Assembly (NCBI GenBank): GCA_039714415.1
Contig: JBDLJL010000001.1
Coordinates: 23,172-87,171 of the forward strand
Reading direction: 5' to 3'
Source: Bacteroidota bacterium
GTDB taxonomy: Bacteria > Bacteroidota > Bacteroidia > Bacteroidales > NBLH01
DNA length: 64,000 nt
In this document: positions 39,066 through 55,355 of the stretch, one piece after another
How positions within the stretch are numbered: the first letter of the stretch is position 1
Layout: every line of letters starts with the position of its first letter
The notes under the pieces: generated by a model
What the model was told of the DNA's origin: nothing
Databases searched by the model: none
Seen by the model: the letters and a program-made list of their open reading frames with translations, nothing else
Translations under genes and position numbers: made by a program

Positions 39066-41471
39066 ATGAAATTTAAATTTTTTATTAGTAGCTTACTTTT
39101 ATTGTTGGTATTTCCAATGCAAATGTTTGCTAGTGAAGCAGACTTGGTTATTCCTGCAGGAGTCAAGGCTGAAACAATTCTGTATTGGGGATTCCTAATA
39201 ACTTTCTTCGGATTTTTATTTGGTTTGTACCAGTTTATGAAAGTGAAAAAAATCAGGGCTCATAAATCTATGTTAGATGTTGCCCATGTAATTTATGAAA
39301 CAGGGAAAACCTACCTTATCCAACAAGGAAAATTTTTAGCAATCCTTTTTATATTTATTGGAACGGCTGTTGCTTTTTATTTTGGATATTTGTCTGAAGC
39401 TCATTTTGGCGTAGGCGGTGTACTTATGATTCTTGGTTGGACAATATTAGGAATACTTGGATCATATGGTGTTGCATGGTTTGGAATTAGAATGAATACG
39501 CTTGCAAATTCACGAATGGCCTTTGCATCGCTGGAAAGAAAACCAATTAAACTTCTTAATATTCCTTTAAATGCGGGAATGAGTATTGGTGTTGTATTAA
39601 TTTCGCTTGAATTAATGATGATGCTTATTATATTATTATTTGTACCCGGTGAATATGCTGGTGCAAGTTTTATTGGCTTTGCTATTGGTGAATCATTAGG
39701 TGCATCTGCATTAAGAATTGCCGGTGGTATTTTTACCAAAATTGCTGATATTGGTTCCGATTTAATGAAAGTTATCTTTAAAATTGGTGAAGACGATCCA
39801 CGAAACCCGGGAACAATTGCTGATTGTGTTGGTGATAATGCAGGTGATTCTGTTGGCCCTACTGCTGATGGTTTTGAAACCTATGGTGTAACAGGTGTTG
39901 CTCTAATTGCTTTTATCTTACTTGCTGTTACTGAGGTTGAGTTTCAGGTACAATTGCTTTCATGGATATTTGTAATGAGAATCCTTATGATCATTACCTC
40001 AATTGTATCTTTTTGGATTAATGGTGCTATTACTAAGGCTAGATATCAAAATGCTGATGATCTTGATTTTGAAAAGCCATTAACATCCCTGGTATGGATT
40101 ACTTCAATTTTATCAATAGCAGTAACTTTTGTTGTTAGTTATGTTTTAATAAAAGATCTACCCAATGATTTATGGGTAAGTCTTTCAGTAATTATTAGTG
40201 CTGGAACACTTGGTGCTGCACTTATCCCTGAGTTTACAAAAATATTTACAAGTCCCAAATCAACACATGTTAATGAAGTGGTTGAAGCATCTAAACAAGG
40301 TGGAGCATCTTTAAATATTCTTTCAGGTTTGGTTGCCGGTAACTTTAGCGCATTCTGGAAGGGAATGGTATTCTTCTTTCTTATGTTTGTTGCCTATTAC
40401 GCAAGCACTTATGGACTTGAAGGTTTTATGATTTATCCTTCAATTTTTGCTTTTGGCTTAGTTGCCTTTGGTATGTTGGGTATGGGACCGGTAACAATTG
40501 CTGTTGACAGTTATGGTCCGGTAACGGATAATGCTCAATCTATTTATGAACTATCTTTGGTTGAAGAAACTGAAGGTATAGATGCTGAAATAGAAAAAGA
40601 TTTTGGCTTTAAACCCGATTTTGAAAAATCTAAATATTATCTTGAAGCAAATGATGGTGCCGGAAATACTTTTAAAGCTACAGCTAAGCCGGTATTAATT
40701 GGTACAGCAGTAGTTGGAGCTACTACCATGATTTTTTCTCTTATTCTTGTTATAAAGCATTCACTTGGTGTTGAACCTGCGGAAATATTAAACTTGTTAA
40801 ATCCTTATACAATTATGGGATTTCTATTGGGTGGGGCAGTTATCTACTGGTTTACCGGTGCATCAATACAAGCAGTTACAACTGGTGCAGCTAGGGCTGT
40901 TGAGTATATCAAACTCAATATTAACCTTGATCCTGATGCTCCTAAAAAGGCAGATGTTGAAAAATCAAGAGCGGTAGTTAAAATATGTACCGTTTATGCG
41001 CAGAAAGGAATGTGGAATATTTTTATTGCCATATTTAGTTTTGCCCTTGCATTTGCATTTTTATCTGCTCCGGGGGAATCAAATGCTCCTGTTGCAATGT
41101 TTGTTAGTTATCTGATTTCTATTGCATTCTTTGGTTTATTCCAGGCTATATTTATGGCAAATGCCGGTGGGTCATGGGATAACGCCAAAAAAGTTGTTGA
41201 GGTAGATATGCAGGAAAAAGGAACTGCTTTACATGATGCTGCTGTAGTTGGTGATACAGTTGGTGATCCATATAAAGATACTTCGTCTGTAGCCTTAAAC
41301 CCGGTAATTAAGTTTACTACTTTATTTGGCTTACTAGCTATGGAAATTGCAATCGCACCACAATTTAGTGGAGTTGCTACGGTTTTAGGATTTGTATTTT
41401 TGGCTACTGCTTTGTATTTCGTTTACCGGTCGTTCTTTAAGATGAGGATTATTCAAGGTAAAGCAGAATAA
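39066..41471 (+). CDS. hppA: Membrane-bound ion-translocating pyrophosphatase (canonical catalytic motifs)
   Basis: About 801 aa from MKFKFFISS. Motifs: GGIFTKIADIGSDLMK, EDDPRNPGTIADCVGDNAGDSVGPTADGFETY, DSYGPVTDNAQS, GGSWDNAKK and VGDTVGDPYKDTSSVALNPVIKF. The GNTFKATAKP motif has Lys at the position associated with K+-independence. Confidence 0.9.
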   Translation: MKFKFFISSLLLLLVFPMQMFASEADLVIPAGVKAETILYWGFLITFFGFLFGLYQFMKVKKIRAHKSMLDVAHVIYETGKTYLIQQGKFLAILFIFIGTAVAFYFGYLSEAHFGVGGVLMILGWTILGILGSYGVAWFGIRMNTLANSRMAFASLERKPIKLLNIPLNAGMSIGVVLISLELMMMLIILLFVPGEYAGASFIGFAIGESLGASALRIAGGIFTKIADIGSDLMKVIFKIGEDDPRNPGTIADCVGDNAGDSVGPTADGFETYGVTGVALIAFILLAVTEVEFQVQLLSWIFVMRILMIITSIVSFWINGAITKARYQNADDLDFEKPLTSLVWITSILSIAVTFVVSYVLIKDLPNDLWVSLSVIISAGTLGAALIPEFTKIFTSPKSTHVNEVVEASKQGGASLNILSGLVAGNFSAFWKGMVFFFLMFVAYYASTYGLEGFMIYPSIFAFGLVAFGMLGMGPVTIAVDSYGPVTDNAQSIYELSLVEETEGIDAEIEKDFGFKPDFEKSKYYLEANDGAGNTFKATAKPVLIGTAVVGATTMIFSLILVIKHSLGVEPAEILNLLNPYTIMGFLLGGAVIYWFTGASIQAVTTGAARAVEYIKLNINLDPDAPKKADVEKSRAVVKICTVYAQKGMWNIFIAIFSFALAFAFLSAPGESNAPVAMFVSYLISIAFFGLFQAIFMANAGGSWDNAKKVVEVDMQEKGTALHDAAVVGDTVGDPYKDTSSVALNPVIKFTTLFGLLAMEIAIAPQFSGVATVLGFVFLATALYFVYRSFFKMRIIQGKAE

Positions 41472-41599: not shown

Positions 41600-44500
41600 T
41601 TACACCCTCAGAACCTTCTTACTCCACCCTTTGGTTACTATTCTATTCTCCATGTATTCCATTCCTTTTCGAATAAGGTCAAGTTGCAATAGAAAATACA
41701 TGAAGGCTGACATAAGCCAGATAATTAATAAATTAAACCAAAATGTATCTATTTCCAAATTTCCAAATTTCTTTACAGGAGCGTAAAAATGTGCTCTTCC
41801 AAGTTTTGATTCTGTGTATTGGTATATTGGATCTTTTAGTTGAATGATTTTACCATTACGCACAGTAATTTTTTTATGTGAATAATTATTTTGAACATAA
41901 TTTGCAATACTTTGGTTCTGATTATCTTCTCTTAATTTATTAAATGCTTTTTCACTACCTAATGCTTCAACTAAATTTTCATATATAATCTTTTTTTCCT
42001 CATTATCCCTTTTCAGATTACTGATCAATTTGTTTTTTAAATTCCCTAATTCTTTATTAAATGAATTTCTATAATCTTCAGAGCCATAATTTTTTGCTAG
42101 GGTATTTGCAAGCTTTAAAAAGGCGGTATCACTATAAGTACTACTGAGTTTTTTGAGTTCATTTTCCAATAGCCGAATTTGTTTGGCTTTCTCAATGGGA
42201 TTATTTTTCACTACTGATAGGTTAGAGTAAGTACTTTGTAGTTTTTGGATATATAGTAAAATCATATAATTTGTATGGCTTATTTTACGATCTACCTCAA
42301 AAAAGTTTTTTTGAAATGGATTATTCTTAAACTGCTCAACAACCAGCCCTTCATAAGCCCAACGCGACGTCATCAAATCGCCATAAACAGGGGTGTATTT
42401 AGCTGATTTAATATCTTTATGCATTTTATTAAAATCGACTACAGCACCGCTTAAAAGCAACTGTGGCACCAATATAAAAGGGATGGCTATATATGCTGAA
42501 ACTACTGAACTAAAAGCCGATGAAATATTTAAACCAATCAAATTTGCACAAACTGCGGTACTAAAAAACATCAGCCAATAGGCAAAATACAGTCCATTTA
42601 TTTCCAAAAAGCTATTGCCTACAATTACAAATAATAAGGCTTGAACTGCTGAAATGATTATTAATAAAATTATTTTTGAATTAATATAGCTGGATCTGCT
42701 TAGGTTCAGAAAAGATTCTCTTTTAATTATTTTTTTGTCCCGTAATATTTCTTCAGCACTAATTACTAATCCAAGAAATAAAGCAACAATTACACTCATA
42801 AATATGTAAGCAGGCAAATTTTCATTATATGCAAAAACATATTGATCCGTATATTTTTCAAAATCAGCATAATGTTTGGTAAATACACCAAGTATAAAGG
42901 CTAGAACAGGTGCTTCCAGTAAAACGAGAAGAACATACTGTCGGTTACTTAATTTTGATATAAGGTTACGGGTGAAAAAAATTTTGAACTGGTTAAATCG
43001 TGTAGGGGCATTAAAATTATTATCTGGGAGTTGTTTTTTTTCAACAGGGATAATTTTTTTCTCAGTTTTTATTTCTGCTTTGAACAAACCTTCCCATTCT
43101 TCGGCTTGTCTTTTTCTTTTGCGGCTTAATTGTCCAAACTCATTAACTAACCTGGATTCAACAATACGTAGTATTTGTTCCGAGTTAATATTTCCACAGG
43201 TAATGCATTCATTATCGTCTGGGTTAATATAATTACCTTGTTTTCGAAAATATGAAATTGCATCTAAGGGGTTTCCAGAAAAAATAAGTTTGCCACCCTG
43301 ATCAATAACAATTATCTTATCAAACAGCTTGTATATATCTGACGAAGGTTGGTGAATGGTTAATATGACTAATTTTTCTTTAAAAGTTTGTCTTTTTAGC
43401 AGGTTTATTATTTTTTCAGAGTCCATTGATGAAAGTCCCGAAGTTGGTTCATCAGCAAACAAGAGAGCTGGTTCTCGCATCAACTCCAATGCAATATTTA
43501 GCCTTTTTCGCTGCCCACCACTTAAAATCTTATTTAGGGGGTCACCAACTTTTAAATCTTCGGCTTCTTTTAAATCGAAATCAACAATTGTATTATCAAC
43601 AATTTTGTTAATATTTTCTTCACTGCAAGTGCTAAAGCATAGTTTAGCATTGTAATAAAGGTTCTGATATACAGTTAATTCTTCAAATAGAAGGTCTTCT
43701 TGCGGAACATAGCCAATAATACCATTCAGGGTTTGTTTATCATCATGTATATCATAACCATTTATTAAAATATCACCCGTTTTTTGGTTAAGGTTACCGT
43801 TTAAAACATTTAACAATGTTGATTTACCCGATCCGCTACCGCCAATAATACCAACCAGTTGTCCTGATTCGGCTTCGAAACTAATATTTTCAATTCCTTT
43901 GGTGCTGTTATTAAATGAAAAGGAAACATTATGGGCTGTTAGTTCAATTCCGTAAATATCCTTTTTATGTATAAATGCACTTACCATATTGCTATAATAA
44001 ATCCGGTCAATACGCCGGCCCCTGATAACTGCACCAACTGCCCAGATATAGGTTCGTTCCGGTTTTATATTTCTACCATTTAAAAACAAGTTATGTTTAC
44101 CAAAATATTTTAGTAAATAGGTATCAGAGTTTTTTAACTGTAAAACGAAAATTTTACCAGCCATTTTTTCATTATAAAGATGCCTGGCCTGAGGATGTAT
44201 AAAGCGTTGATTTCCGCTTATTACAAGAATTTTATCAGTTAGCGCAATAGATTCATTCTCGCTAATAACGAGGTTCTTACTTTGTTCAAAATCATCCTTG
44301 TCAATATTAAAGGTATCGGCAATATCCCTTACCAGTTCTAGCTCCTCATTACTGTCGTAATCACTATCAGCTATAAACTCAAGTAACTGTACGGTAAGCC
44401 AAAATTTCTGTTTTTGTTCAAATTCTTTATTTATTTCAGTACATATTTCTTCTATTCTTTCATGATAAATAGAAATATCAGGTTTTGTTTTTTGGGGCAA

Positions 44501-44686
44501 ATTTAAATGGTATTTTTGCACTTGATCATTAAAATACTGCGTACATTTTTCTGATTGCGATTTGCCGTAATTTCTATAAAAATATTCTTCAACCACCTTC
44601 ATTGCAATTTCATAATTTTTGAAATGTTTTACATCGGCAATAATGGCAAATAGTTTTATAAGTGCATGAAGTAAAGATTCATTCAT
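41600..44686 (-). CDS. ABC transporter, fused ATPase + ABC-2-type permease, with an N-terminal extension of about 270 aa
   Basis: 1028 aa. Walker A is GIIGGSGSGKSTLLN, the signature is LSGGQRKRLNIALEL, and Walker B is LLFADEPTSGLS. A multi-TM ABC-2-like domain and a C-terminal coiled-coil plus final TM follow. Confidence 0.85.
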   Translation of the reverse strand: MNESLLHALIKLFAIIADVKHFKNYEIAMKVVEEYFYRNYGKSQSEKCTQYFNDQVQKYHLNLPQKTKPDISIYHERIEEICTEINKEFEQKQKFWLTVQLLEFIADSDYDSNEELELVRDIADTFNIDKDDFEQSKNLVISENESIALTDKILVISGNQRFIHPQARHLYNEKMAGKIFVLQLKNSDTYLLKYFGKHNLFLNGRNIKPERTYIWAVGAVIRGRRIDRIYYSNMVSAFIHKKDIYGIELTAHNVSFSFNNSTKGIENISFEAESGQLVGIIGGSGSGKSTLLNVLNGNLNQKTGDILINGYDIHDDKQTLNGIIGYVPQEDLLFEELTVYQNLYYNAKLCFSTCSEENINKIVDNTIVDFDLKEAEDLKVGDPLNKILSGGQRKRLNIALELMREPALLFADEPTSGLSSMDSEKIINLLKRQTFKEKLVILTIHQPSSDIYKLFDKIIVIDQGGKLIFSGNPLDAISYFRKQGNYINPDDNECITCGNINSEQILRIVESRLVNEFGQLSRKRKRQAEEWEGLFKAEIKTEKKIIPVEKKQLPDNNFNAPTRFNQFKIFFTRNLISKLSNRQYVLLVLLEAPVLAFILGVFTKHYADFEKYTDQYVFAYNENLPAYIFMSVIVALFLGLVISAEEILRDKKIIKRESFLNLSRSSYINSKIILLIIISAVQALLFVIVGNSFLEINGLYFAYWLMFFSTAVCANLIGLNISSAFSSVVSAYIAIPFILVPQLLLSGAVVDFNKMHKDIKSAKYTPVYGDLMTSRWAYEGLVVEQFKNNPFQKNFFEVDRKISHTNYMILLYIQKLQSTYSNLSVVKNNPIEKAKQIRLLENELKKLSSTYSDTAFLKLANTLAKNYGSEDYRNSFNKELGNLKNKLISNLKRDNEEKKIIYENLVEALGSEKAFNKLREDNQNQSIANYVQNNYSHKKITVRNGKIIQLKDPIYQYTESKLGRAHFYAPVKKFGNLEIDTFWFNLLIIWLMSAFMYFLLQLDLIRKGMEYMENRIVTKGWSKKVLRV

Positions 44687-44855: not shown

Positions 44856-45110
44856 TTACGGTAAGCCTGGAAAAGAATCAACAAATTCAACCTTAATATC
44901 ACCAAAAGAGTCCACAATTTCCACTTTAAAATCGCCGAAAGAATCCACAATTTCCCATTGTCCGCATTCGTTAGCAAAATTACTTACTTTTTCTATTTTT
45001 AAATCAGGGAAGGAGTCTACCACCTCGACTTTGATATCTGCAAAGGATTCCACAATTTCCACTTTCCCATATAATTTAATTCCATTAAATGTACAATCAC
45101 TTCCAACCAT
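44856..45110 (-). CDS. Small acidic protein made of six tandem repeats of about 10 aa, (I/F)KVE(I/V)VDSF(P/G)D
   Basis: MVGSDCTFNGIKLYGKVEIVESFADIKVEVVDSFPDLKIEKVSNFANECGQWEIVDSFGDFKVEIVDSFGDIKVEFVDSFPGLP. It has the same orientation as the pyrophosphatase-like gene and starts 22 bp after that gene's stop. The track's longer start (45152) would overlap that gene. Confidence 0.55.
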   Translation of the reverse strand: MVGSDCTFNGIKLYGKVEIVESFADIKVEVVDSFPDLKIEKVSNFANECGQWEIVDSFGDFKVEIVDSFGDIKVEFVDSFPGLP

Positions 45111-45132: not shown

Positions 45133-47310
45133 TTATATAATGCCCGATGCAATAATTAATGCTACAATAGCACTTAATTTTATTAAAATATTAAGTGCCG
45201 GGGCCGAGGCATTACCTAATGGTTTCCCAACATTATCACCCACTTTTGCGGCTTGATAAACTTCTGAATTTATACCATAAGTTTCACCATTCCAATTCAC
45301 ACCTTTAGCAATTTCATTTTTTGCACTATTCCAAACTGTAGCCGAATTTGCCTGTGTAATGGCAAGAACAAAACCTACAGGAATCAATCCGGCAAGTATT
45401 CCGGCAAGAAGCTCAGCACCACCAAAATATCCCGTAAGGGTGGGTATAGCAATAGCAATTACAACAGGAATAATTAATTCCCTTATTGAATTGTAAGTAG
45501 AAATCATAACCAGGTCATCATATTCTGATTTACCCTCAGCATCTTCTATAATAGCTTGTTCTTCTTCATTTGGCACTTCCGGGTCACCATAATATTTTCT
45601 AAAAATATCCAGGGCTGCTTTTAATTGGGGTATATCATTAAATTGACGGTTTACTTCTATTACTATTTTATTAGCCACCTCACCGACAGAATTAATTATA
45701 ACTGAGGAGAATAAGAATGGGATCATGCCACCAATCAAAATCGCTCCGATAATTAACGGATCAGATATCTCTAACAAAGGAATATTTGTTTTTTGAAGAT
45801 ATGCACTAAACAAGGCAAAGGCAGTTAATGCGGCGGCTGAAATAGTAAAACCTTTAACAATAAACCCTTTTCTGTTTCCAATTTCACTTAATTCTTTGGT
45901 TGTTTGAACTGTTTCAATACTTAAACCGGACATTTTTGCCAAATGATCAGCGTTCTTTGCGATAGGATTATAAGAATTGATGGCAAGGATAATACCAGTA
46001 TTTGCCAACATACCAACAGCAGCTATTGCAACGCCATAAAAATCTACAAAATAATATGAACTTCCTATTGCAGCGGCAATAATTAAAACAGGTGCAAAAG
46101 CTGATAAAAATCCAGATGATAAACCAGACAAAACATTTGACGAAGGACCTTTAAATGTTTTTTCTATTACTGAACCCACAGGCTTTCCATGTATCGTAAA
46201 AAAATCAGTAAATAAACTAACTAAAATACCTGAAGCTATTCCAATAAATGATGCCCAAAAAACACCTAGTGATTGATATTTTGTGATAATTAAGTTATCA
46301 CCAACTGTTTTGCTCATTTCCCATTCAGACGGTAACATGAATTTTATAACAAAAAATGTGGCTATAGTCAAAATGGTTGCTGAAATGAAATTGGAAAAGC
46401 GATAACTAGTCCAGAAATTTTCAGATTCTACTGTCCTTACCAAAAAGTTTCCTGTTATTGATGTAAGAACACCAACTGAGACAATTGTCAATGGAAGCAA
46501 TATTGGGCCATAAGAAAAATAGTTTTGAATGGCATCAGAATTTACAAAAGGGATACCCAGTAACATAGTAGCAATTATTGCAGCAACGGTTGATTCAATT
46601 AAATCAGTACTTACACCGCTAACATTGTTTATATTTATTCCTGCATTATTTGCTATTTCAGATGGGTTAACCGCTGAATTTTCAGGAATTGCTTCTTCGG
46701 TTTTAAGAACAAGCTCTTTCCCTTCTTCGGCTGCCTGCGCATAAACCCCACCAACAACCCTGTCAAAAAGAGCAACAGTTGAAGCCCCAAGGGCATAACC
46801 TGTTAAACCATCTAAAGCGGTAATTAAACCCCATTCAATGCCAAATAGCTGATAATAAATGAACAAAGAAGTTAAGCCGATAACTGAAAGAGCTATATAT
46901 CCAACACCAATTGCAGACCCACCTGAGAAGGCGACCTTAAATGCCTTATTTAATGATTCTTCGGCGGCATTGGTCGTCCTACCATGTGTATTAGATGAAG
47001 CACGAATACTTAAATAAGCAGCAAGCGAAGAAAAAGCTGCACCTACAATAAACGAAGCGGTAAGAAAACCATTAGAATTTTCAACAGAACGGCTTTGAAG
47101 AAATAACAAGACAGCTATTAAGGTAACAAATGCCGCCATTACTTTGTACTCTGTTTTTAAAAAAGTATATGATGCACTATGGATATACGAAGAAATATCT
47201 TTTATTTTTTGGTTTCCTTCTGCTTGTAGGTATACCTGGCGCGATTTCCAAAATACATAAGCCAAACCCAAAACACCTATACCAATTAAATAATAAATTA
47301 CGTTTTCCAT
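45133..47310 (-). CDS. Divergent membrane pyrophosphatase homolog lacking most canonical catalytic Asp motifs
   Basis: 725 aa, colinear multi-TM M-PPase fold. The motif positions read GGVYAQAAEEGKELVLK, ENSAVNPSEIANNAGININNVSGVSTDLIES, NSYNPIAKNADH, SATVWNSAKN and VGDNVGKPLGNASAPALNILIKL. Confidence 0.8.
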   Translation of the reverse strand: MENVIYYLIGIGVLGLAYVFWKSRQVYLQAEGNQKIKDISSYIHSASYTFLKTEYKVMAAFVTLIAVLLFLQSRSVENSNGFLTASFIVGAAFSSLAAYLSIRASSNTHGRTTNAAEESLNKAFKVAFSGGSAIGVGYIALSVIGLTSLFIYYQLFGIEWGLITALDGLTGYALGASTVALFDRVVGGVYAQAAEEGKELVLKTEEAIPENSAVNPSEIANNAGININNVSGVSTDLIESTVAAIIATMLLGIPFVNSDAIQNYFSYGPILLPLTIVSVGVLTSITGNFLVRTVESENFWTSYRFSNFISATILTIATFFVIKFMLPSEWEMSKTVGDNLIITKYQSLGVFWASFIGIASGILVSLFTDFFTIHGKPVGSVIEKTFKGPSSNVLSGLSSGFLSAFAPVLIIAAAIGSSYYFVDFYGVAIAAVGMLANTGIILAINSYNPIAKNADHLAKMSGLSIETVQTTKELSEIGNRKGFIVKGFTISAAALTAFALFSAYLQKTNIPLLEISDPLIIGAILIGGMIPFLFSSVIINSVGEVANKIVIEVNRQFNDIPQLKAALDIFRKYYGDPEVPNEEEQAIIEDAEGKSEYDDLVMISTYNSIRELIIPVVIAIAIPTLTGYFGGAELLAGILAGLIPVGFVLAITQANSATVWNSAKNEIAKGVNWNGETYGINSEVYQAAKVGDNVGKPLGNASAPALNILIKLSAIVALIIASGII

Positions 47311-47667
47311 ATCAAGTAGTTAAGTGAATTTCTATTTATAATCCAGTAAGGCATAAAAGTAAACATGTTATTACATAAAAGCAATTATAGTTTAATTTAT
47401 TTATAATTATCACTACTTAGAGTATTGTCTTAATTAATGTGTGTATATCACACAATCAGAGGCAGGTATTGTAATTGATAATTATGGAAAATTGTTGATA
47501 AGTTATTTGTAAGTTAGTAAATTGGGAAATTAATTGGTAGAAACAATTTTCAATTTGTTTTTATAACCTTCACCTGAATGTATGGTTACATGAGAACCGC
47601 CCAGATTATTTTCACTATTTAATAAATGGGAAACTCTGAAAACCCAATGGGAACAAATCTTATAAAC

Positions 47668-47702
47668 AAAACAAGCCTGTCAATATTTGACAGGCTTGTT
47701 TT
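47668..47702 (-). terminator. Rho-independent terminator downstream of the 211-aa hypothetical gene
   Basis: AACAAGCCTGTCAA (47670-47683), loop TAT, TTGACAGGCTTGTT (47687-47700): a 14-bp perfect stem with flanking A/T runs. Confidence 0.75.
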
Positions 47703-47729
47703 GAAATTGAGATAACGTCTTAATAATAA

Positions 47730-48365
47730 TTATTTATCACAGTTTTCGTATGCTTCTGAAATTGCTGTAAGTATCTCTATTCTCTTATCTGTAGGAGTCA
47801 TCATACCAATTTTATATTCTTTGCTTTTTGCAGCAATCTCTTTTGATAATTCGGCACAATCAGCAGTTAATTTAGCAAGCTTTTTATTTGTTACGCTCAT
47901 ATCATCAACAGGTTTCAAGAATTTTTTTTCTGCAAAGTACACATAGTAAGATGTACCTGTAGGATATTTGTATCCGGTTTCAGATGATCCACCACTAATA
48001 GTTGATTTCTGATAAGTTGACTTTAACAACAAAATTTTAGCCTTGGGGTTGTTCAAAATCGTAGCAAAAGTTTCAACCATTACTCCCTTAATCCTCACAA
48101 AATGCTCATCATTTACAAAAAACTCTTTAACTTCTTTTGTTACAAATTTGGAAGGTTTTTTTACACCTTCAATATATACACGAACTTTGTTACTTGAGGT
48201 TAAGTCATAATTAATGGTTCCTGTTACTTCTTCGCCATTTAATAAAATAACTTTCCCAGGCCCTTTGTGGACAATGCCTAACTCTGATGTTTCATTACCA
48301 CTTTGTGATTTAAGGTTTATTGCTAAAAATAATAATGGAACAATCGCTAATGTAATTTTTTTCAT
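47730..48365 (-). CDS. Hypothetical secreted protein
   Basis: 211 aa with a signal peptide (MKKITLAIVPLLFLAINLKSQ). I recognised no family. Confidence 0.5.
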   Translation of the reverse strand: MKKITLAIVPLLFLAINLKSQSGNETSELGIVHKGPGKVILLNGEEVTGTINYDLTSSNKVRVYIEGVKKPSKFVTKEVKEFFVNDEHFVRIKGVMVETFATILNNPKAKILLLKSTYQKSTISGGSSETGYKYPTGTSYYVYFAEKKFLKPVDDMSVTNKKLAKLTADCAELSKEIAAKSKEYKIGMMTPTDKRIEILTAISEAYENCDK

Positions 48366-48619
48366 TTAATAGAATTTAGATGTATAACAAATTTTTACAA
48401 AGGTTGATAAAAAAAGACTTTTACGCTAATTAAGTGCTAAATATTCATGGCAATCTCATATAAAATAATGCACAATATTTTGCACATATTATATTTATAG
48501 AAATTTCAATGATGTATTTTTTTGACGAGCATTGAAAAAAATTCATTCTACGAATATGATAGTTGAGTAAATACAGCGAACCGAGATTTTATACTAATTA
48601 AGTGTTTGTCCATAAAGTC

Positions 48620-48866
48620 CGCTATCTTCGTTATGCTTGTCCTTAAAATGGTCATTTACGGTAGTAAATTCACATTTTTCAGACTGCACAAGCCTTGATA
48701 GCAAACTTTCTGAACGAAACACTGACATTATAGACAGATTCTAATTGTCCCTTAGAAAACGCCAATTTACACGTTGAACTTGTGTTGAAAACAGCCATTT
48801 ACAATAGTAAATTCCTTGATTTTCATAACTTCGTTAGCCTTGACTTTGACGATTTCTAAAAGACAA
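48620..48866. repeat. Two tandem degenerate copies of the MITE-like repeat family
   Basis: The hairpin cores TCATTTACGGTAGTAAATTC (48651-48670) and CCATTTACAATAGTAAATTCC (48794-48814), plus flanks such as CTTCGTTA.GC, AAGCCTTGATAG and CGATTTCTAAAAGACAAC, align with the 17878-17998 element. Confidence 0.55.
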
Positions 48867-49056
48867 CTGAAAAAAATATTTTCACTATATAATTTAGGAT
48901 CATGTCGTTTTCTTAAGACTGTTTTACAGGTTTTAACGATCAATGCGAATACAATATAAAATAATTCCGAAATCCAACATTATACTATCGTACATATAAG
49001 GAAAAATTTATACTTTTAGCACATATAAGTCAGTATCAATGTATCTGTAAAATTTA

Positions 49057-50025
49057 ATGAAATGTCCTTATTGTTTTAAAGTAAGCAGGTTTAGCGTACA
49101 GAGGAAAAAAGGATCACGTAAAGTGTATTATTGTGCCTATTGTAAGTCTGAGCTACCAAGAGCGTTTATAGAATCTCCTGAAACCCAATATACAAAAATT
49201 GGAATGATTGGTTATACCGGACATGGTAAAACCGCCTATAAAACCTCATTGTTATACCAATTAAAAGCCCTGAATGATTTTTGGAATGATTTCTACTTTG
49301 AAACCTTTGATGACACATCACATGATTCAATGTATACTAGAGTTTCACTACTTGAACAGGGAAGGTTACCGAAAAGTACAAGGGCTGTTTTCCCCCGCCC
49401 CACTTTTTTTCGTTTAAACAATTTTTCTTATCTCCGCACGCGGTTTGTGAGTATGTTTGATACAGGAGGGAAATTATTTAGCAGGCTTGATCTAATGACC
49501 CGCAAAGGAAGATACCTTGCTAATTGCAATACAATTTTCTTTTTTATCAGTTTAACAGAAGAGGATATGAAGGATAATTGGAATCTGAAAATTATGAAAC
49601 TTTTAGATAGATATTCCCAGGTAATTTATAGTCGCTATGGTATTAAAACGTCAAAAAAACAAAATATTTTATTTGTACTTACTAAGTCAGATGAGTTAGT
49701 TAAACTTAATAACGAACAAAAATTATCAGAAAATATTGTTAACTATTTCGAAAGTGGAACAATTGAAAAATATAGGAATTTAGATGAAAATTGGTTTAAT
49801 TTCATAAAGTTGAATTCTGAAAGTATTGAAAGCTGGTTACGGGCAAACAACTGCAATAGTTTTATAAACTCCGCTAAAAACCATTTTAAAGATGTAGGTT
49901 TTGTTATGACTTCTGCACTTGGTAGTGCTCCAATTGACGATGTTTCAGCCAATAAATTGTCAACAAAAGACCCAAAAGGTGTACTCGACCCACTTATTTG
50001 GGCTTTACATATATCGCAAGAATAA
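49057..50025 (+). CDS. Zinc-ribbon-fused P-loop GTPase, paralog A
   Basis: 322 aa. The N-terminal CxxC...CxxC uses C3, C6, C26 and C29. G1 is GYTGHGKT (49210-49233), G3 is DTGG (49459-49470), G4 is TKSD (49681-49692), and TSALG is G5-like. Confidence 0.7.
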   Translation: MKCPYCFKVSRFSVQRKKGSRKVYYCAYCKSELPRAFIESPETQYTKIGMIGYTGHGKTAYKTSLLYQLKALNDFWNDFYFETFDDTSHDSMYTRVSLLEQGRLPKSTRAVFPRPTFFRLNNFSYLRTRFVSMFDTGGKLFSRLDLMTRKGRYLANCNTIFFFISLTEEDMKDNWNLKIMKLLDRYSQVIYSRYGIKTSKKQNILFVLTKSDELVKLNNEQKLSENIVNYFESGTIEKYRNLDENWFNFIKLNSESIESWLRANNCNSFINSAKNHFKDVGFVMTSALGSAPIDDVSANKLSTKDPKGVLDPLIWALHISQE

Positions 50026-50077
50026 AGATAAACTTTAAAGTATATAAAAAAGAAAACATTATTAACCAATAACTTAA

Positions 50078-50198
50078 GGTGGCTTCTAAAAATTCGGTTA
50101 TCAAGGCTTGCCAAAATTTTCAAGCTCGATTTTACATCTGTAAATGAGTGTTTTAAAATTTGGGCGTAACGCAGAGAAACGGATTTTTAGAGGTTGCC
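50078..50198. repeat. 121-bp MITE-like repeat (inverted orientation) between the GTPase paralogs
   Basis: GGTGGCTTCTAAAAATTCGG...CGGATTTTTAGAGGTTGCC. It is identical at 112/121 positions to the reverse complement of 17878-17998 by manual alignment. Confidence 0.85.
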
Positions 50199-50223
50199 TT
50201 AACCTAACATTAGCCCCGAATAG

Positions 50224-51216
50224 ATGAAATGTCCGTATTGTTTTAAAGAACTAAAGATTAAAGTACAAGAAAAAGGATCCCGGCACCTGTATTATTGCAG
50301 TCGTTGTGAGTCTGAAATTCATAGAGCCTATATCGATTACCCTAACACTCCTTTTACAAGAATTGGAATGGTTGGTTATACAGGTCATGGTAAAACAGTA
50401 TACATCACTTCCTTGTTTTATCAACTTCAGGCGCTGGATAACTTTTGGGATGGCTATTATTTTGAAACTTTAGATGATTTTACGCATGATATAATGTTTG
50501 AAAAGGTGTTGGAACTGAAAAAAGGAAGATTGTTTTCCGGTACTCCCATAAATTTTCCTGAACCTGCTTTTATTCGTTTTAATAATATGCCTAATTTCAA
50601 TACCCAAATTGTAAGCATGTACGATATTGGTGGTGGTGTGTTTGATAATCTCGATTTGATGACACAAAAGGGGAAATATCTGGCTCATTCCGACACTATT
50701 TTTTTTATAATGAGTTTGATTGAAGAAGATATTGTAGATGACTGGAACCTAAAGACAATGGGTTTGCTCGACAGGTATATACATGTAGTTTATAGTCGGT
50801 TTGGGGCAAATTTATCAAAAAAACAGAATATTGTTTTTGTTTTTACAAAATCGGATGAATTGGTTAAAGCTGAAGGTGAAAGAAAATTAAATCTTGAAAT
50901 AGTTGATTATTTTAAAAATGGAACTCTTGAGCAATTCCAGTATCTCGATAGTTATTCTTTAGACCAGATCAGGCATAATTCTGCTAATATCGAAAGATGG
51001 CTTCGTGAAAACAATTGCAATGGTTTTATCAACCTGGCAAAAAATCATTTTCGTACGGTTAATTTTGTGCTTACATCTGCATTAGGTGATGCCCCGGTAG
51101 AAAATAAATTAGTTAAAGGGCTCTCGCCACTTGATCCTAAATGTGTTCTCGATCCTTTTTTATGGGCTTTGCATGCCCCAAATATTAAACCTCCCCGACG
51201 ATGGTGGTTTTTTTAA
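50224..51216 (+). CDS. Zinc-ribbon-fused P-loop GTPase, paralog B
   Basis: 330 aa. It has the same architecture as paralog A: C3, C6, C25 and C28; GYTGHGKT (50374-50397); YDIGG; FTKSDE; TSALG. It is colinear with paralog A, with roughly half of residues identical by eye. Confidence 0.7.
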   Translation: MKCPYCFKELKIKVQEKGSRHLYYCSRCESEIHRAYIDYPNTPFTRIGMVGYTGHGKTVYITSLFYQLQALDNFWDGYYFETLDDFTHDIMFEKVLELKKGRLFSGTPINFPEPAFIRFNNMPNFNTQIVSMYDIGGGVFDNLDLMTQKGKYLAHSDTIFFIMSLIEEDIVDDWNLKTMGLLDRYIHVVYSRFGANLSKKQNIVFVFTKSDELVKAEGERKLNLEIVDYFKNGTLEQFQYLDSYSLDQIRHNSANIERWLRENNCNGFINLAKNHFRTVNFVLTSALGDAPVENKLVKGLSPLDPKCVLDPFLWALHAPNIKPPRRWWFF

Positions 51217-51226
51217 ACTTGTTATT

Positions 51227-52069
51227 ATGCACCCAATAGATAAAAAAAACAAAAATTTTGCTATAATAATTTTGACAATTGCAGTTTTCGTTGCAGTTTT
51301 CTGCATTTTTAGGAATAAGTATTATTTAATTGCATTAGCTGCATTTGGAATATTAGCACTTGCCAATACATTGAATGTTAAACACCGACTGGTTTTAATG
51401 GGTATTTTTGTAGCCATTGGCTTTCCGGTTATTCTTGTTTTAGATTATTATTTATCACAAGATGTGTCATTTACCACTAAGGGAGCATATGAGCACTTTT
51501 GGATGAGTTTTATTTTTGCTGCAATTATTCTTATTACACCTTTCTTTTTTGCTTATGCTTATTTTATCCAAATAATTATAACGGCTACTAGTCAAAAAAT
51601 ACATTATGCAATTATCGAAAAATACCCCTATTTAATTTGTACTGAACACTATACAAGAACAAGGGATTATACAATAATGGGATATAGAAGTGTTCGTTGC
51701 AGAAAGGGTAAAAAATGTCTCAGGCGTAATAAAATTGGTATGGCAGTACGTTTGGTCGGTTTAATAGGCTTAATTGAAAACGACAAACTTTTTGAAAATG
51801 ACTATTATGTTACCTTATGGGATCATAGGTCAGGTAAAATAAGATATGGTGATTATGATGTTATTGAAATTCATAATAATGAGGAAATCAAAGATTACAA
51901 TTTTGTTATCTCTAAAATAATTACCTTTTTTTATAATGAAATTGATAGGTACAAACTAATTAATGAAGTAAGTATCAGGGTTGTTGGTGATGTACCAATA
52001 TCTGAAAATACGAAAAGATTACTTGAGCAACATTTTTTAAAGGTAGAATATTTAACTGAAGAATTATAA
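51227..52069 (+). CDS. 4-TM membrane protein with cytoplasmic Cys/His-containing C-terminal domain
   Basis: 280 aa from the ATG at 51227, 10 bp after the paralog B stop. It has four hydrophobic helices in aa 11-120, then a soluble domain of about 160 aa with C138-x2-H141...C158-x5-C164. I recognised no family. Confidence 0.6.
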   Translation: MHPIDKKNKNFAIIILTIAVFVAVFCIFRNKYYLIALAAFGILALANTLNVKHRLVLMGIFVAIGFPVILVLDYYLSQDVSFTTKGAYEHFWMSFIFAAIILITPFFFAYAYFIQIIITATSQKIHYAIIEKYPYLICTEHYTRTRDYTIMGYRSVRCRKGKKCLRRNKIGMAVRLVGLIGLIENDKLFENDYYVTLWDHRSGKIRYGDYDVIEIHNNEEIKDYNFVISKIITFFYNEIDRYKLINEVSIRVVGDVPISENTKRLLEQHFLKVEYLTEEL

Positions 52070-52081
52070 AATCAATCTGTA

Positions 52082-53641
52082 ATGGGAAGCTATAAAATTC
52101 ATCAACTTGTTTATACAAAACTCAACCCGGAAGATAGCCCTTTTGACAAAAAAGACTTCCATACTGCATTTTACCCGCTTAAATTTCTAACGGCTACAGA
52201 TGTTTTAGTGTTGGAAAATCATATTTATATCCCAGGTAATGATGATTTTTTATCAAAGCAAGTTGTTTATTTTAATAAAATAAAAGAAGAAACTTACCTT
52301 TTTGTTTTTAACATCAATATTTTAGCGAATGAAGTTGATATGCTTGGTAGGGGTGGTGTTTTTCTTTGTCATGTATTTATGTTCCCCCAGGATTTGTGGC
52401 AACAATTACCTTCCCCTAATCAATTGATGGAATTAGTAAAAAAATATAAATACAATTCTCGCAGTAAATTACTTAACAGCAGTTATATAGATAAACAAAG
52501 TGGTAATATGTTACCCATACAGCTTGATTCTGAAATTGTAGAAAAGGCTGAGAAGAAACTACCAAAAATAGAAGGTAGCTTTGAAGGGCAAATGTTATTA
52601 CACCTTACCGATAGCTTTAATCAGGAAAATGCTGAGCAAAAGTTTATTGTACATGCTAAGGAAACCGAGGCCAGGGAGCTATTCAACAAACTTATTTGTT
52701 ATTTACCAAATGAGCAAAAAGTAAAAGTTGGCTGGGATACAATGTATGATGGTGGTCGAATGATGGACTATAATAAAACATTTGTTGCCTATAAGAACAA
52801 TGCTCCAAGGGGAGGGAGTGCATCAACACTAGTTAAACTATCAAAAAAGTTAATCGAGTTGGCCCAGGATTTTAAGGTTAATAAAGAACAAAGTCCATTT
52901 ACCAAATGGGCTACAGGATGCTCAGGTTCAATTGAAACTCATTTTTATATTGAGGAAGCACATAATCTTTCTAAATCCATGCTTGCAAAAACAACATATA
53001 ACTTAACTGATAATTGGAATATTGAATGTTTCGCAAAAGTAAACATAGATCTAGTTGAAAAATTATTCACAAAAAAATGTAAAGAAGAATTTAAAAGGAA
53101 GTTGTTTAAAGAATTAAATAAAATTATGTCAATAAAAGACAAGTTATTATTTATTCATGATAAATTGGAATTTTCAACAGTTGCTGATTATTTATTAATC
53201 ATCATTGATAATAGTAAAATAGCGGCAAAATTTCTGGACGCAGGTATTTCAAAAGAAATTATAAACAACAGCCCTACATTGATATTAATTGAACAATTAT
53301 GTAATACGGATAAGTTTGATCTTGAGGCTTTTAATCAGTTAACAGATAATCAAAAACTACAATTAAACAAATATGTGCTAAAAACCTCATTTCAAAAGAA
53401 AGATTGGTATCTTGAACTTATAAAAAGTGATGAAGCACTTTTAAATTACTATATCAGGAAATACCCAAAGCCGAAAAGGATAATTAGGCGCTTTCGAAAG
53501 GTGTTAAAAATGAATGAAACAGAAATTTATCAAATGGGTTTTAGTTTATTAATTATCCGGAGGATATTTTATTTTAAGATGGCACATTTTTTCAATAAAA
53601 TTTCCAGCATATTTCGCAGGCGAAAAAAAACGATTGCCTAA
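52082..53641 (+). CDS. Large cytoplasmic protein with a GTPase-associated-protein (GAP1)-like N-terminus and a helical C-terminal half
   Basis: 519 aa, starting 12 bp after the previous stop. The N-terminal YKIHQLVYTKL...FHTAFYP...GRGGVFLCHVFMF resembles the hQLhYT...GR.G.f.aH pattern I recall for GAP1 N-terminal domains. The assignment is from memory only. Confidence 0.5.
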   Translation: MGSYKIHQLVYTKLNPEDSPFDKKDFHTAFYPLKFLTATDVLVLENHIYIPGNDDFLSKQVVYFNKIKEETYLFVFNINILANEVDMLGRGGVFLCHVFMFPQDLWQQLPSPNQLMELVKKYKYNSRSKLLNSSYIDKQSGNMLPIQLDSEIVEKAEKKLPKIEGSFEGQMLLHLTDSFNQENAEQKFIVHAKETEARELFNKLICYLPNEQKVKVGWDTMYDGGRMMDYNKTFVAYKNNAPRGGSASTLVKLSKKLIELAQDFKVNKEQSPFTKWATGCSGSIETHFYIEEAHNLSKSMLAKTTYNLTDNWNIECFAKVNIDLVEKLFTKKCKEEFKRKLFKELNKIMSIKDKLLFIHDKLEFSTVADYLLIIIDNSKIAAKFLDAGISKEIINNSPTLILIEQLCNTDKFDLEAFNQLTDNQKLQLNKYVLKTSFQKKDWYLELIKSDEALLNYYIRKYPKPKRIIRRFRKVLKMNETEIYQMGFSLLIIRRIFYFKMAHFFNKISSIFRRRKKTIA

Positions 53642-53687
53642 AAAAACTGAAAAAATAAAATGACAGCGGGCTTCTATTCAGGACTAT

Positions 53688-55355
53688 TTAAAATTCCATT
53701 ACTACCTGTTGCGTATTTCCTTTCTTATCTATAGCTACGGTTAAGTAGATTTTATTCTCCCTGTATGATACTGAGCACTGTTTCGGCACTATTGCTTTGT
53801 TACGCATTAAGGTTTTGTCATAAACATTTCCTTCCCTGTCCACAGCCATAAGCCGTACAATGCTCTTTTTTGGATAAAATGTGAATGCTTTTTTAGGCCA
53901 GCTTAAAATTGTTTCATTTTTTATATGGTCGTTAAACAGAAAGTAATCGTATCTGTCGGTTTTAAAATAGATATAACCAATGTAAATCATCTCACTATCT
54001 TCTTCACCCTGCCTTATAGGGATTAACCTTGTCCATTCTACATTTCTATTCTTATCCAGACTTACCAGTGCAATACTTCCATGTGTAGACTTGGTATGTT
54101 CAGTGGTTGTGGTGATGGTAGTAGTGGTTTCAACTTTGAAACCATTATCAGAGGTTGTACTTTTCGTTTTTCTTGTTTTCGTTCTTTCAAAATCATATTT
54201 AAACGGACTTTCGTATATAAAAAGCAACTTCCCTCCATCACTTCTGTCGGTATACCTTTGTAAATCTATATTCCTTATTGCTTCACTTCCATTATTATAT
54301 CTATAAGGTTTGTATCCCAGTTTTACAAAATCGTCCACAAAGTATATATGTGTACTATCAATCAGGGTACCGCTTTTCTTATCAAATTTATGGGAAGAAA
54401 GACCATGTATGTAATTAAGCTTACTCAGGTTGCTATAGGCAGATAGGAACTCCAATGTTTGTTCTTCTTCAAAAATGAATGGGATACTATATCTTTTTGC
54501 ACTTAATTTGAGTGAATCGCCCAATAGCTTACTATTTATTATCTTTGTCTCTCCTCCCATAACAAACTGAGTTTGTTTACCATTATTGTCTATCTTATTA
54601 ATACGGAAATCATATGTAGGGAAATCCAATAGCTTTGCATCTGGGCGCAATATTTCTCTCTGGAATGCGATATATATATTTCCACTGTTATTCTCCTTTA
54701 AGGAGGTAATGTTTACTTTTTTGGTATTTTCCCCAAGGAAGTACTGGTTCGAGAAAAGCTCATTCATGTTTCCGTCCATCACCTTCAGAACATATTCGTT
54801 TCTGGTACGCAGCATAGCAGCAATTAAAAGTTTCTTTCCGGTCCAACGGAACTTTATATTGGCACTGGTCATTGTCTCAGAAATCATCTTCAGGTCTATA
54901 CGGTCCTGGATTAATACAGGATCAGAGAGAGTAGCTGTAGTTTTATCAAGGTATTGATAATATAGGTTCTCGCCATAGTCTATGACTGTTCCTGTTGGTG
55001 TTTCAAGCAGTGTTTCAAACAATACAGTGTATAGTACAATATATTTAGTAGTAGATTCCAAAGTATAAAGGTAGCGGTCACAACTTTTTCTAACTGAAAC
55101 CGATTGGGCCAAAGGGTAGGTTTCAGTCACTTCTCCTTCAGCATTATAATGCGATATTTCCATATACATGGAATGCGAACAAACAAGATGACTTCTTTTT
55201 CGTTTAGTTGTTACTTTGTAATAATCACGAGTATTTTTTTTAGCAGGCTTATTTTCCGTAGTTACAGATTGTTTTATCTGTTTAAACTGGGCGTTTACCT
55301 GTAGGCTGAAAATAGAGTTTAGGATAATCAGTAGGAGTGGTAATAAGGTTTTCAT
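53688..55355 (-). CDS. Hypothetical secreted protein
   Basis: 555 aa with a signal peptide (MKTLLPLLLIILNSIFSLQVNAQ) and an internal Thr-rich tract (TTTTITTTTEHTKST). I recognised no family. Confidence 0.5.
   Translation of the reverse strand: MKTLLPLLLIILNSIFSLQVNAQFKQIKQSVTTENKPAKKNTRDYYKVTTKRKRSHLVCSHSMYMEISHYNAEGEVTETYPLAQSVSVRKSCDRYLYTLESTTKYIVLYTVLFETLLETPTGTVIDYGENLYYQYLDKTTATLSDPVLIQDRIDLKMISETMTSANIKFRWTGKKLLIAAMLRTRNEYVLKVMDGNMNELFSNQYFLGENTKKVNITSLKENNSGNIYIAFQREILRPDAKLLDFPTYDFRINKIDNNGKQTQFVMGGETKIINSKLLGDSLKLSAKRYSIPFIFEEEQTLEFLSAYSNLSKLNYIHGLSSHKFDKKSGTLIDSTHIYFVDDFVKLGYKPYRYNNGSEAIRNIDLQRYTDRSDGGKLLFIYESPFKYDFERTKTRKTKSTTSDNGFKVETTTTITTTTEHTKSTHGSIALVSLDKNRNVEWTRLIPIRQGEEDSEMIYIGYIYFKTDRYDYFLFNDHIKNETILSWPKKAFTFYPKKSIVRLMAVDREGNVYDKTLMRNKAIVPKQCSVSYRENKIYLTVAIDKKGNTQQVVMEF

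What the first reader, a model, noticed from the sequence alone, without database searches (positions are those of the whole stretch)
45133..47310. Second membrane-pyrophosphatase paralog with catalytic Asp motifs replaced (candidate pseudo-enzyme or repurposed transporter)
Two M-PPase homologs lie 3.7 kb apart.

**The 39066-41471 copy keeps the canonical hydrolytic-centre motifs**
- GGIFTKIADIGSDL
- EDDPRNPGTIADCVGDNAGD
- DSYGPVTDNA
- WDNAKK
- GDTVGDPYKDTS

**The 725-aa copy is colinear and clearly homologous, but reads differently at the same positions**
- GGVYAQAAEEGKEL
- ENSAVNPSEIANNAGININN
- NSYNPIAKNA
- WNSAKN
- GDNVGKPLGNAS

Most of the Asp/Lys residues known to coordinate Mg2-PPi and the nucleophilic water in M-PPases are Asn, Ser, Ile or Lys in this copy. 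The ORF is otherwise intact, with no frameshifts across the multi-TM scaffold, which argues for selection for a non-PPi-hydrolysing function such as a channel, sensor or alternative substrate.
Basis: partly seen in the sequence, partly recalled or inferred. Interest (0 to 1): 0.55.

Follow-up and report, generated by a model that had tools for sequence, protein, structure and literature searches.

The report
Catalytically dead membrane pyrophosphatase, conserved clade
This gene encodes a full-length copy of a pyrophosphate-driven ion pump that has lost the residues needed to split pyrophosphate but keeps its membrane ion-binding site and is maintained by selection in a group of uncultured Bacteroidales, so it looks like a pump turned to a new, still unknown use.

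Summary
ORF 45133-47310 (-) is an intact 725-aa protein. It matches Pfam H_PPase over the whole profile (E 5.5e-158). The AlphaFold2 model (pLDDT 89.9) superposes on the T. maritima and V. radiata pumps (TM-score 0.87-0.88).

Ten catalytic residues are replaced, including both Asp that position the nucleophilic water (D6.43, D16.39, both now Asn). It falls below every NCBIfam equivalog cut-off.

It is not a pseudogene:
- 16 protein clusters (54-100% identity, 721-736 aa, Bacteroidales/Bacteroidota MAGs) share the same losses.
- Five Asp-to-Asn changes are fixed as Asn across the clade.
- dN/dS is 0.16-0.19 at unsaturated dS, against 0.05-0.07 for the neighbouring canonical pump.

The complete ion gate and the hydrophobic gate are kept.

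The dead copy descends from a K+-dependent Na+-PPase lineage, not from the neighbouring K+-independent-type pump (23% identity). Other degenerate M-PPase lineages exist in public data, with at least two independent origins, and all keep the gate.

No paper in the searchable library describes this. A 2024 paper calls these active-site residues "completely conserved".

Function is only inferred. The most likely reading is a pyrophosphate-independent, gated cation-binding or cation-translocating protein.

The parts
45133..47310 (-). Gene for the degenerate membrane pyrophosphatase homolog (725 aa, 16 predicted TM helices)
   Evidence: ORF; Pfam PF03030 positions 1-645 of 645, E 5.5e-158; below all NCBIfam equivalog cut-offs; AF2 pLDDT 89.9, pTM 0.91; Foldseek TM-score 0.87-0.88 to 8b21 and 5gpj
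46579..46767 (-). Codons for aa 182-244: TM5, loop 5-6 and TM6. Lost here: K5.58Q, D5.77N, D6.35N, D6.39I, D6.43N. Kept here: R5.50, E5.76, D6.50, E6.53, S6.54
   Evidence: Alignments. Loop 5-6 is the most conserved segment within the clade (0.90)
45949..45984 (-). Codons for aa 443-454 (TM11 motif AINSYNPIAKNA; D11.57N, the following Asp to Lys)
   Evidence: N445 invariant in 16 of 16 clade members
45316..45333 (-). Codons for aa 660-665 (TM15 motif WNSAKN; D15.61N, K15.64 kept)
45175..45243 (-). Codons for aa 690-712 (TM16; D16.31 kept, D16.35K, K16.38G, D16.39N; gate N16.46 and K16.50 kept)
47667..47703 (-). 17-bp hairpin followed by a U-rich run, downstream of the preceding gene (47730-48365). 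It implies the degenerate PPase has its own promoter in the roughly 350 bp that follow
   Evidence: Sequence; fold -25.4 kcal/mol, z -8.8, 0 of 200 shuffles as good. The consensus terminator scan did not flag it
44856..45110 (-). Small co-directional gene (84 aa from the ATG) of the '7(1) septoil knot' family, 22 nt downstream of the PPase stop codon
   Evidence: Conserved downstream of the degenerate PPase in W, L065, L066, L007 and L001; homologs carry PF19647; phrog_6462 E 1.4e-31
41600..44686 (-). Co-directional 1028-aa ABC-2 type ATPase-permease fusion, syntenic in close relatives
   Evidence: Pfam ABC_tran + ABC2_membrane; same arrangement in L003, L065, L067
39066..41471 (+). Canonical membrane pyrophosphatase (801 aa) with Lys at 12.46 (K+-independent type) and all catalytic residues present
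   Evidence: NF001950 1318 bits against a cut-off of 826; 0 mismatches in the catalytic signature; dN/dS 0.05-0.07

Best explanation
The ORF encodes a functional but catalytically dead descendant of a K+-dependent Na+-pumping membrane pyrophosphatase. Shown here: it keeps the whole 16-helix fold. It keeps the membrane ion gate (S5.43, R5.50, D6.50, E6.53, S6.54, K12.50, N16.46, K16.50) and the hydrophobic gate. It has lost the Asp/Lys residues that hold the Mg2+ cage and pyrophosphate, and both Asp that position the attacking water. The remodelled pocket is itself conserved, the gene is under purifying selection, and it belongs to a conserved Bacteroidales clade. Following from established M-PPase chemistry: it cannot hydrolyse Mg2-PPi and so cannot be a PPi-energised pump. 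Inferred: it still binds a cation (Na+ or H+) in the membrane. It most likely acts, probably as a homodimer like its relatives, as a PPi-independent gated cation translocator or cation sensor. In this model the conserved lid loop 5-6 and the Asn/Lys-lined former active site serve as the gating or ligand-binding site. Confidence is about 0.9 for 'selected, non-hydrolytic M-PPase homolog' and about 0.35-0.4 for the specific gated-cation mechanism. The figure given blends the two.
For: Homology and fold. Loss of 10 catalytic residues in the window protein, and of the same positions across 16 clusters and 11 loci. The active-site Asp/Asn/Lys are described as 'completely conserved', and D6.43 and D16.39 as holding the nucleophilic water, in PMC10897367. 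Below all 13 NCBIfam equivalog cut-offs. Purifying selection: dN/dS 0.16-0.19 at dS 0.38-0.48, with intact 721-736 aa ORFs down to 54% identity. The pocket is remodelled rather than decayed: of 366 positions invariant in the canonical sister group, 59 switched to a new conserved residue. These include D6.35N, D6.43N, D11.57N, D15.61N and D16.39N, each present in 88-100% of members. Loop 5-6 is the most conserved segment (0.90). All gate and hydrophobic-gate residues are retained in the clade, and also in independently degenerate lineages. Own transcription unit.
Against: No experiment or expression data exist. The gate residues form a buried charged network and could be retained only because the helix bundle needs them to fold. 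The hydrophobic gate is unchanged, so a constitutively open channel is unlikely and some trigger must be postulated. No ligand is identified. Genomic context gives no functional hint, because neighbours differ between sub-clades. Selection is about three times weaker than on the canonical pump.
Confidence: 0.5

Rival explanations
1. It is a non-catalytic regulatory partner that forms heterodimers with a catalytically active M-PPase, for example the canonical pump 3.7 kb away. This would exploit the known half-of-the-sites, subunit-coupled mechanism of these dimers.
For: M-PPases are obligate dimers with inter-subunit communication through helices 10, 13 and 15 (PMC10897367). A canonical M-PPase lies within about 3.5-5 kb in the window, L003 and L067. 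The interface position 15.49 stays non-polar (L649 invariant).
Against: Identity to the neighbouring pump is only 23% overall, and 26% and 24% on interface helices 13 and 15, so it is not enriched there. The neighbour belongs to a different subclass. In the 55%-identity sub-clade no canonical pump lies within 10 kb. The second degenerate clade also has none nearby. The genes are on opposite strands.
Confidence: 0.15
2. It is a structural relic with a role unrelated to ion binding, such as a membrane scaffold or protein-interaction platform. The gate residues would be retained only because the buried salt bridge is needed for folding.
For: Selection is relaxed about threefold relative to the canonical pump. 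153 of 366 formerly invariant positions are now variable. No partner or ligand is evident from context.
Against: Every gate position and all four hydrophobic-gate positions are kept in several independent degenerate lineages. The former active site and lid loop are more conserved than the average of the protein. A mere scaffold would not require this.
Confidence: 0.15
3. It still hydrolyses or binds a phosphoanhydride (PPi, polyphosphate or a nucleotide), or transports an anion, through a metal-poor Lys/Arg/Asn-lined pocket. That would make it an enzyme or transporter with a new substrate.
For: K15.64, K12.50, E5.76 and D16.31 are kept. New conserved Lys/Arg appear in the funnel (A198K, T480K/R, T481K, D16.35K, K16.38R in most members). 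The pocket is conserved.
Against: Both Asp that activate the nucleophilic water are Asn with no acidic residue adjacent. Five Mg2+-ligand Asp are gone. No conserved new His, Cys or Ser-triad type nucleophile is apparent among the 59 switched positions.
Confidence: 0.1
4. It is a decaying pseudogene or an annotation or assembly artefact.
For: Loss of catalytic residues is what a dying gene would show first.
Against: It is an intact full-length ORF in 16 clusters from independent assemblies down to 54% identity. dN/dS is 0.16-0.19. Replacement residues are conserved. The structure model is confident.
Confidence: 0.02

Closest known systems
K+-dependent Na+-translocating membrane pyrophosphatases (e.g. 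Thermotoga maritima TmPPase, PDB 4AV3/5LZQ/8B21; canonical Bacteroidota relatives P0017-P0020, P0043)
   Same: Same 16-helix fold (TM-score 0.87), with 44-48% identity to canonical Bacteroidota enzymes. Same ion gate, with Glu at 6.53, S5.43, D6.50, S6.54, N16.46 and K16.50, and the same hydrophobic gate. It nests next to these enzymes in the tree.
   Different: It lacks K5.58, D5.77, D6.35, D6.39, D6.43, D11.57, D15.61, D16.35, K16.38 and D16.39. Position 12.46 is Gly (Glu in most of the clade) and 12.49 is Val, instead of Ala and Gly. It fails the NCBIfam equivalog cut-offs. It therefore cannot be filed as a pyrophosphatase.
Vigna radiata H+-PPase (PDB 4A01/5GPJ)
   Same: Best sequence match among solved structures (E 2e-91), TM-score 0.88. 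R242, K261, E268, D294, K541, K694, D723 and K742 are conserved.
   Different: The gate Glu is at 6.53, not 6.57. The catalytic residues are lost as above.
The neighbouring canonical M-PPase in the window (39066-41471; NCBIfam NF001950 type)
   Same: Same Pfam family, and syntenic with the dead copy in close relatives.
   Different: Only 23% identical. It has Lys at 12.46 (K+-independent type), is 801 aa with an N-terminal extension, and has all catalytic residues present. It is not the parent of the dead copy.
Pseudo-enzymes and pumps that became channels or regulators (e.g. CFTR and SUR among ABC transporters, channelrhodopsins among rhodopsin pumps). Analogy from general knowledge, not tested here
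   Same: The scaffold of a primary transporter is retained while the energy-coupling chemistry is lost or repurposed.
   Different: No such case has been described for the M-PPase family in the literature searched. Whether this protein conducts ions or regulates anything is unknown.

Membership tests
Membrane pyrophosphatase superfamily (Pfam PF03030, homology and fold) | Full-length match to the H_PPase profile | tested here: met
   PF03030 E 5.5e-158, profile 1-645 of 645
Membrane pyrophosphatase superfamily (Pfam PF03030, homology and fold) | 16-TM fold superposable on solved M-PPases | tested here: met
   AF2 pLDDT 89.9; TM-score 0.87-0.88 to 8b21 and 5gpj
Functional M-PPase (PPi-energised ion pump, TC 3.A.10) | Completely conserved active-site Asp/Asn/Lys forming the Mg2+ cage and PPi site (PMC10897367) | tested here: not met
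   10 of 15 scored active-site positions are replaced non-conservatively and 2 more are Asp-to-Glu. The same positions are lost in all 16 clade members
Functional M-PPase (PPi-energised ion pump, TC 3.A.10) | Asp 6.43 and Asp 16.39 positioning the nucleophilic water | tested here: not met
   Both are Asn in the window protein. They are Asn in 15 of 16 and 14 of 16 clade members
Functional M-PPase (PPi-energised ion pump, TC 3.A.10) | Ion gate E6.53/57, D6.50, S6.54, D/N16.46, K16.50 plus S5.43 | tested here: met
   All present, and invariant or nearly so in the clade
Functional M-PPase (PPi-energised ion pump, TC 3.A.10) | Score above the curated NCBIfam equivalog cut-off | tested here: not met
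   Best hits are NF001955 at 658 against 1059 bits and NF001960 at 542.9 against 546 bits. All 13 models are below cut-off
Functional M-PPase (PPi-energised ion pump, TC 3.A.10) | Mg2+-dependent PPi hydrolysis coupled to Na+/H+ transport | not testable with these tools
   Requires expression and a biochemical assay
K+-dependent Na+-PPase subclass | A12.46, G12.49 and E6.53 (Table 1 of PMC10897367) | tested here: not met
   E6.53 is present, but 12.46 is Gly (Glu in 13 of 16 members) and 12.49 is Val. The canonical sister group has A, G and E
Pseudo-enzyme (catalytically inactive homolog maintained by selection) | Clear homology to an enzyme family with loss of essential catalytic residues | tested here: met
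Pseudo-enzyme (catalytically inactive homolog maintained by selection) | Purifying selection and conservation across species | tested here: met
   dN/dS 0.16-0.19; 16 clusters and 5 GTDB species representatives
Pseudo-enzyme (catalytically inactive homolog maintained by selection) | Demonstrated lack of catalytic activity | not testable with these tools
   Inferred from residue loss only

The most novel reading that the evidence does not exclude
M-PPases have given rise, at least twice, to a previously unrecognised class of PPi-independent membrane proteins. These keep the pump's ion gate but have turned the hydrolytic centre into a conserved, uncharged Asn/Lys-lined pocket. They would be natural 'uncoupled' pumps that work as ligand-gated Na+/H+ translocators or cation sensors. 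They would allow ion translocation to be studied without hydrolysis, which bears directly on the pumping-before-hydrolysis debate.
Probability: 0.35. Interest if true: 0.8.

Novelty: new variant of a known kind. Interest (0 to 1): 0.62.

Why it matters
The M-PPase field treats the active-site Asp/Asn/Lys as completely conserved and recognises only pumping subclasses (PMC10897367). A selected, catalytically dead lineage that keeps the ion gate would be the first pseudo-enzyme branch of this family.

It offers a natural separation of the ion-binding machinery from hydrolysis. That could help test whether substrate binding or hydrolysis drives ion movement.

It also has a practical consequence. 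These genes are currently annotated as "sodium-translocating pyrophosphatase" in MAGs, so metabolic reconstructions that count them as energy-conserving PPases are probably wrong.

The same pattern appears in other lineages, which suggests a recurrent evolutionary route rather than a one-off.

Tried and rejected
- **Offset alignment:** rejected. Three independent alignments agree, and no acidic residue lies next to 6.43 or 16.39.
- **Pseudogene:** rejected by dN/dS and clade conservation.
- **Recent duplicate of the neighbouring pump:** rejected. Identity is 23% and the subclass differs.
- **Conserved operon partner:** none found. Neighbours differ between sub-clades and in the second degenerate clade.
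- **The 84-aa downstream gene as a dedicated partner:** it looked like a candidate but belongs to the widespread PF19647 septoil-knot family, so this is not supported.
- **Profile search with other degenerate representatives (A3):** recovered only one extra clade, because canonical pumps dominated the list.
- **Long-branch attraction as the sole cause of the degenerate super-clade:** made less likely, because another long-branch degenerate set never joins it (0 of 100 bootstraps). Only NJ was available, however.
- **Sigma-70 promoter scan:** at chance level, 15 found against 17.1 expected.
- **Literature searches:** seven searches found no report of inactive M-PPase homologs. One search was too loose to be informative.
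- **Six ORFs between the gene and the M20 peptidase:** PADLOC, PHROGs and Pfam scans gave nothing significant.
- **Small protein against phage genomes:** tblastn found no match.

Full report
**Observation**

The window carries an intact 725-aa ORF at 45133..47310 on the minus strand, and a second M-PPase gene at 39066..41471 on the plus strand. Both match Pfam H_PPase (PF03030) over the whole profile, with E 5.5e-158 and 2.5e-179. The plus-strand copy passes the NCBIfam equivalog NF001950 (1318 bits against a cut-off of 826). The 725-aa protein is below the cut-off of all 13 M-PPase equivalog models; the best is NF001955 at 658 against 1059 bits.

HMMER alignment to the Vigna radiata H+-PPase structure sequence (E 2e-91) places the quoted motifs in register. 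In the helix.offset numbering of PMC10897367, the replacements are K5.58Q, D5.77N, D6.35N, D6.39I, D6.43N, D11.57N, D15.61N, D16.35K, K16.38G and D16.39N. D5.61 and D5.65 are Glu. MAFFT alignments with 44 canonical relatives and with 58 genome loci give the same columns, so the losses are real and not an alignment offset.

**Fold**

An AlphaFold2 model built on 34 sequences has mean pLDDT 89.9 and pTM 0.91, with the expected long helices. Foldseek against the PDB returns only M-PPases at the top. TM-scores are 0.87 to T. maritima Na+-PPase (8b21) and 0.88 to V. radiata H+-PPase (5gpj).

**A conserved clade, not a pseudogene**

The homolog search found 16 protein clusters (P0001-P0016) at 54-100% identity and 721-736 aa. 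Below that there is a sharp drop to canonical proteins at 48% identity or less. All 16 share the same losses, and every protein from P0017 on is canonical. In GTDB species representatives the degenerate form occurs in five MAGs labelled Bacteroidales or Bacteroidetes. The other loci recovered are canonical.

Pairwise Nei-Gojobori estimates were made on DNA from nine loci. They give dN/dS 0.16-0.19 for the closest pairs, where dS is 0.38-0.48 and not saturated. For the same genome pairs, the neighbouring canonical pump gives 0.05-0.07 and the ABC transporter 0.08-0.12. The gene is therefore under clear purifying selection, about three times weaker than on the true pump.

**What is kept and what is lost**

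366 positions are at least 95% invariant in the canonical sister group. In the clade:
- 154 are retained.
- 59 have switched to a different residue that is itself conserved.
- 153 are now variable.

The switched class includes D6.35N, D6.43N, D11.57N, D15.61N and D16.39N, each Asn in 88-100% of members. The old active site has therefore been remodelled and then held, not left to drift. Loop 5-6, the lid over the active site in real pumps, is the most conserved segment within the clade (mean 0.90).

In contrast, all of the following are invariant or nearly so:
- the ion-gate residues listed in PMC10897367 (E6.53, D6.50, S6.54, N16.46, K16.50, with S5.43);
- R5.50 and K12.50;
- the four hydrophobic-gate positions.

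PMC10897367 describes the active-site Asp/Asn/Lys as "completely conserved" and assigns the nucleophilic water to D16.39 and D6.43. From that established chemistry I infer that the protein cannot hydrolyse Mg2-PPi.

**Origin**

The nearest canonical proteins have A12.46, G12.49 and E6.53, the signature of K+-dependent Na+-PPases (Table 1 of PMC10897367). They come from Bacteroidales, Chlorobi and Saprospiraceae MAGs. The neighbouring canonical gene has Lys at 12.46 (K+-independent type) and is only 23% identical to the dead copy. The two are therefore not recent paralogs. The dead copy descends from a Na+-PPase lineage.

**Beyond this clade**

A profile of the clade was searched against 1.84 billion representatives. 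The clade collapsed to one representative at 50% identity (P0002, 1333 bits), and the next hit was canonical at 727 bits. Among the best 150, however, about 24 further proteins have 5-22 of 24 scored catalytic positions changed. Several of these were confirmed as multi-member clusters from independent assemblies.

In a neighbour-joining tree, the window clade groups with nine of them and with a partly degenerate protein, P0123. With catalytic columns removed, bootstrap support is 100% for the window clade and 93% for this larger group. A third degenerate set never joins it (0 of 100). That indicates at least two independent origins, with the caveat that only NJ was available.

All of these lineages keep the gate and hydrophobic-gate residues while the active site differs from lineage to lineage. 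One of them (P0122, P0295-P0298, Bacteroidales MAGs) also shows dN/dS 0.22.

**Context**

In close relatives (L003, L065, L067) the order is degenerate PPase, then a 1028-aa ABC-2 ATPase-permease. In L003 and L067 the canonical pump follows on the other strand, as in the window. In L067 and in the 55%-identity sub-clade, an M20 peptidase is divergently transcribed directly upstream. In the window that peptidase lies 8.6 kb away (55905-57263), beyond six ORFs with no confident family match.

An 84-aa co-directional gene follows the degenerate PPase in both sub-clades, but it belongs to the widespread PF19647 septoil-knot family. The second degenerate clade sits among unrelated housekeeping genes.

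A strong hairpin (-25.4 kcal/mol, z -8.8) separates the gene from the one upstream. Context therefore suggests an independent transcription unit and no dedicated partner.

**Mechanism**

*Shown:* fold, gate retention, catalytic loss, conserved remodelled pocket, purifying selection, and clade membership.

*Inferred:* the protein no longer uses PPi but still binds Na+ or H+ at the gate. The hydrophobic gate is intact, so a permanently open pore is unlikely. The conserved lid loop and pocket suggest that some ligand or condition gates cation access. I therefore favour a PPi-independent gated cation translocator or sensor.

*Rivals:*
- A regulatory heterodimer partner. The interface helices show no co-adaptation with the neighbour, and adjacency is not universal.
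- A scaffold whose gate residues are kept only for folding.
- A new anion or phosphoanhydride ligand or substrate.
- A pseudogene, which is refuted.

**Novelty**

Seven literature searches found no description of catalytically inactive M-PPase homologs. Many papers in this field are in subscription journals that were not searchable, so this is absence of evidence within the held library.

Pseudo-enzymes are common in general, so I rate this a new variant of a known kind. It should interest M-PPase specialists, and it matters for annotation, because these proteins are currently labelled as sodium-translocating pyrophosphatases.

Noticed in passing
Public protein library; P0122, P0124, P0126, P0127, P0128, P0130, P0134, P0137, P0151 (one group) and P0233, P0251, P0219, P0240, P0264, P0199, P0202 (another): Many other M-PPase homologs have 7-22 of 24 catalytic positions changed yet keep the ion gate. 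NJ bootstrap places the first group with the window clade (93% including P0123). The second group lies elsewhere (0%), implying at least two independent losses of catalysis in the family.
   Followed up: partly
P0123 (766 aa, 9 cluster members) and P0125 (932 aa): Partly degenerate proteins with 6 changes, including D6.43A or D6.43N. They branch at the base of the degenerate super-clade and may be intermediates in the loss of catalysis.
   Followed up: no
window 44856-45110 (-): An 84-aa protein made of about seven 'VDSFxDxKV' repeats. It belongs to the PF19647 '7(1) septoil knot' family and matches phrog_6462 (E 1.4e-31). It is conserved directly downstream of the degenerate PPase in both sub-clades. 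My own Pfam scans missed it although its homologs carry the precomputed hit. The mechanical ORF list gives a TTG start at 45152 that overlaps the PPase stop codon; the ATG at 45110 fits the homologs better.
   Followed up: partly
window 47730-55355: About 8.6 kb with six ORFs (211, 322, 330, 312, 519 and 555 aa) that have no confident Pfam, PADLOC or PHROG match. The only hint is a weak DO-GTPase2 hit (E 0.0023) for 49057-50025. The block sits between the degenerate PPase and the M20 peptidase, which are adjacent in relatives, so it looks like an inserted island of unknown function.
   Followed up: partly
window 41600-44686 (-): A 1028-aa ABC_tran + ABC2_membrane fusion with an N-terminal domain of about 250 aa (weak TerB-like hit, E 0.009). 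It is syntenic and co-directional with the degenerate PPase in close relatives and lies 7 kb downstream in L001. A functional link was not tested.
   Followed up: no
window 39066-41471 (+): The canonical neighbour has Lys at 12.46 but Ala, not Thr, at 12.49. It carries Glu at 6.53 and an N-terminal extension (801 aa from the ATG; the ORF list starts it at a TTG at 38961). This is an unusual combination for the K+-independent type.
   Followed up: no
Homolog list (e.g. P0067, P0077, P0083, P0101, P0104; P0071): Some canonical Bacteroidota M-PPases of about 876-901 aa carry an extra domain (PF01880 or PF04264) fused to the pump.
   Followed up: no
window 47667-47703 (-): A 17-bp perfect hairpin with a U-rich tail (-25.4 kcal/mol, z -8.8) that the consensus terminator scan did not report.
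   Followed up: yes
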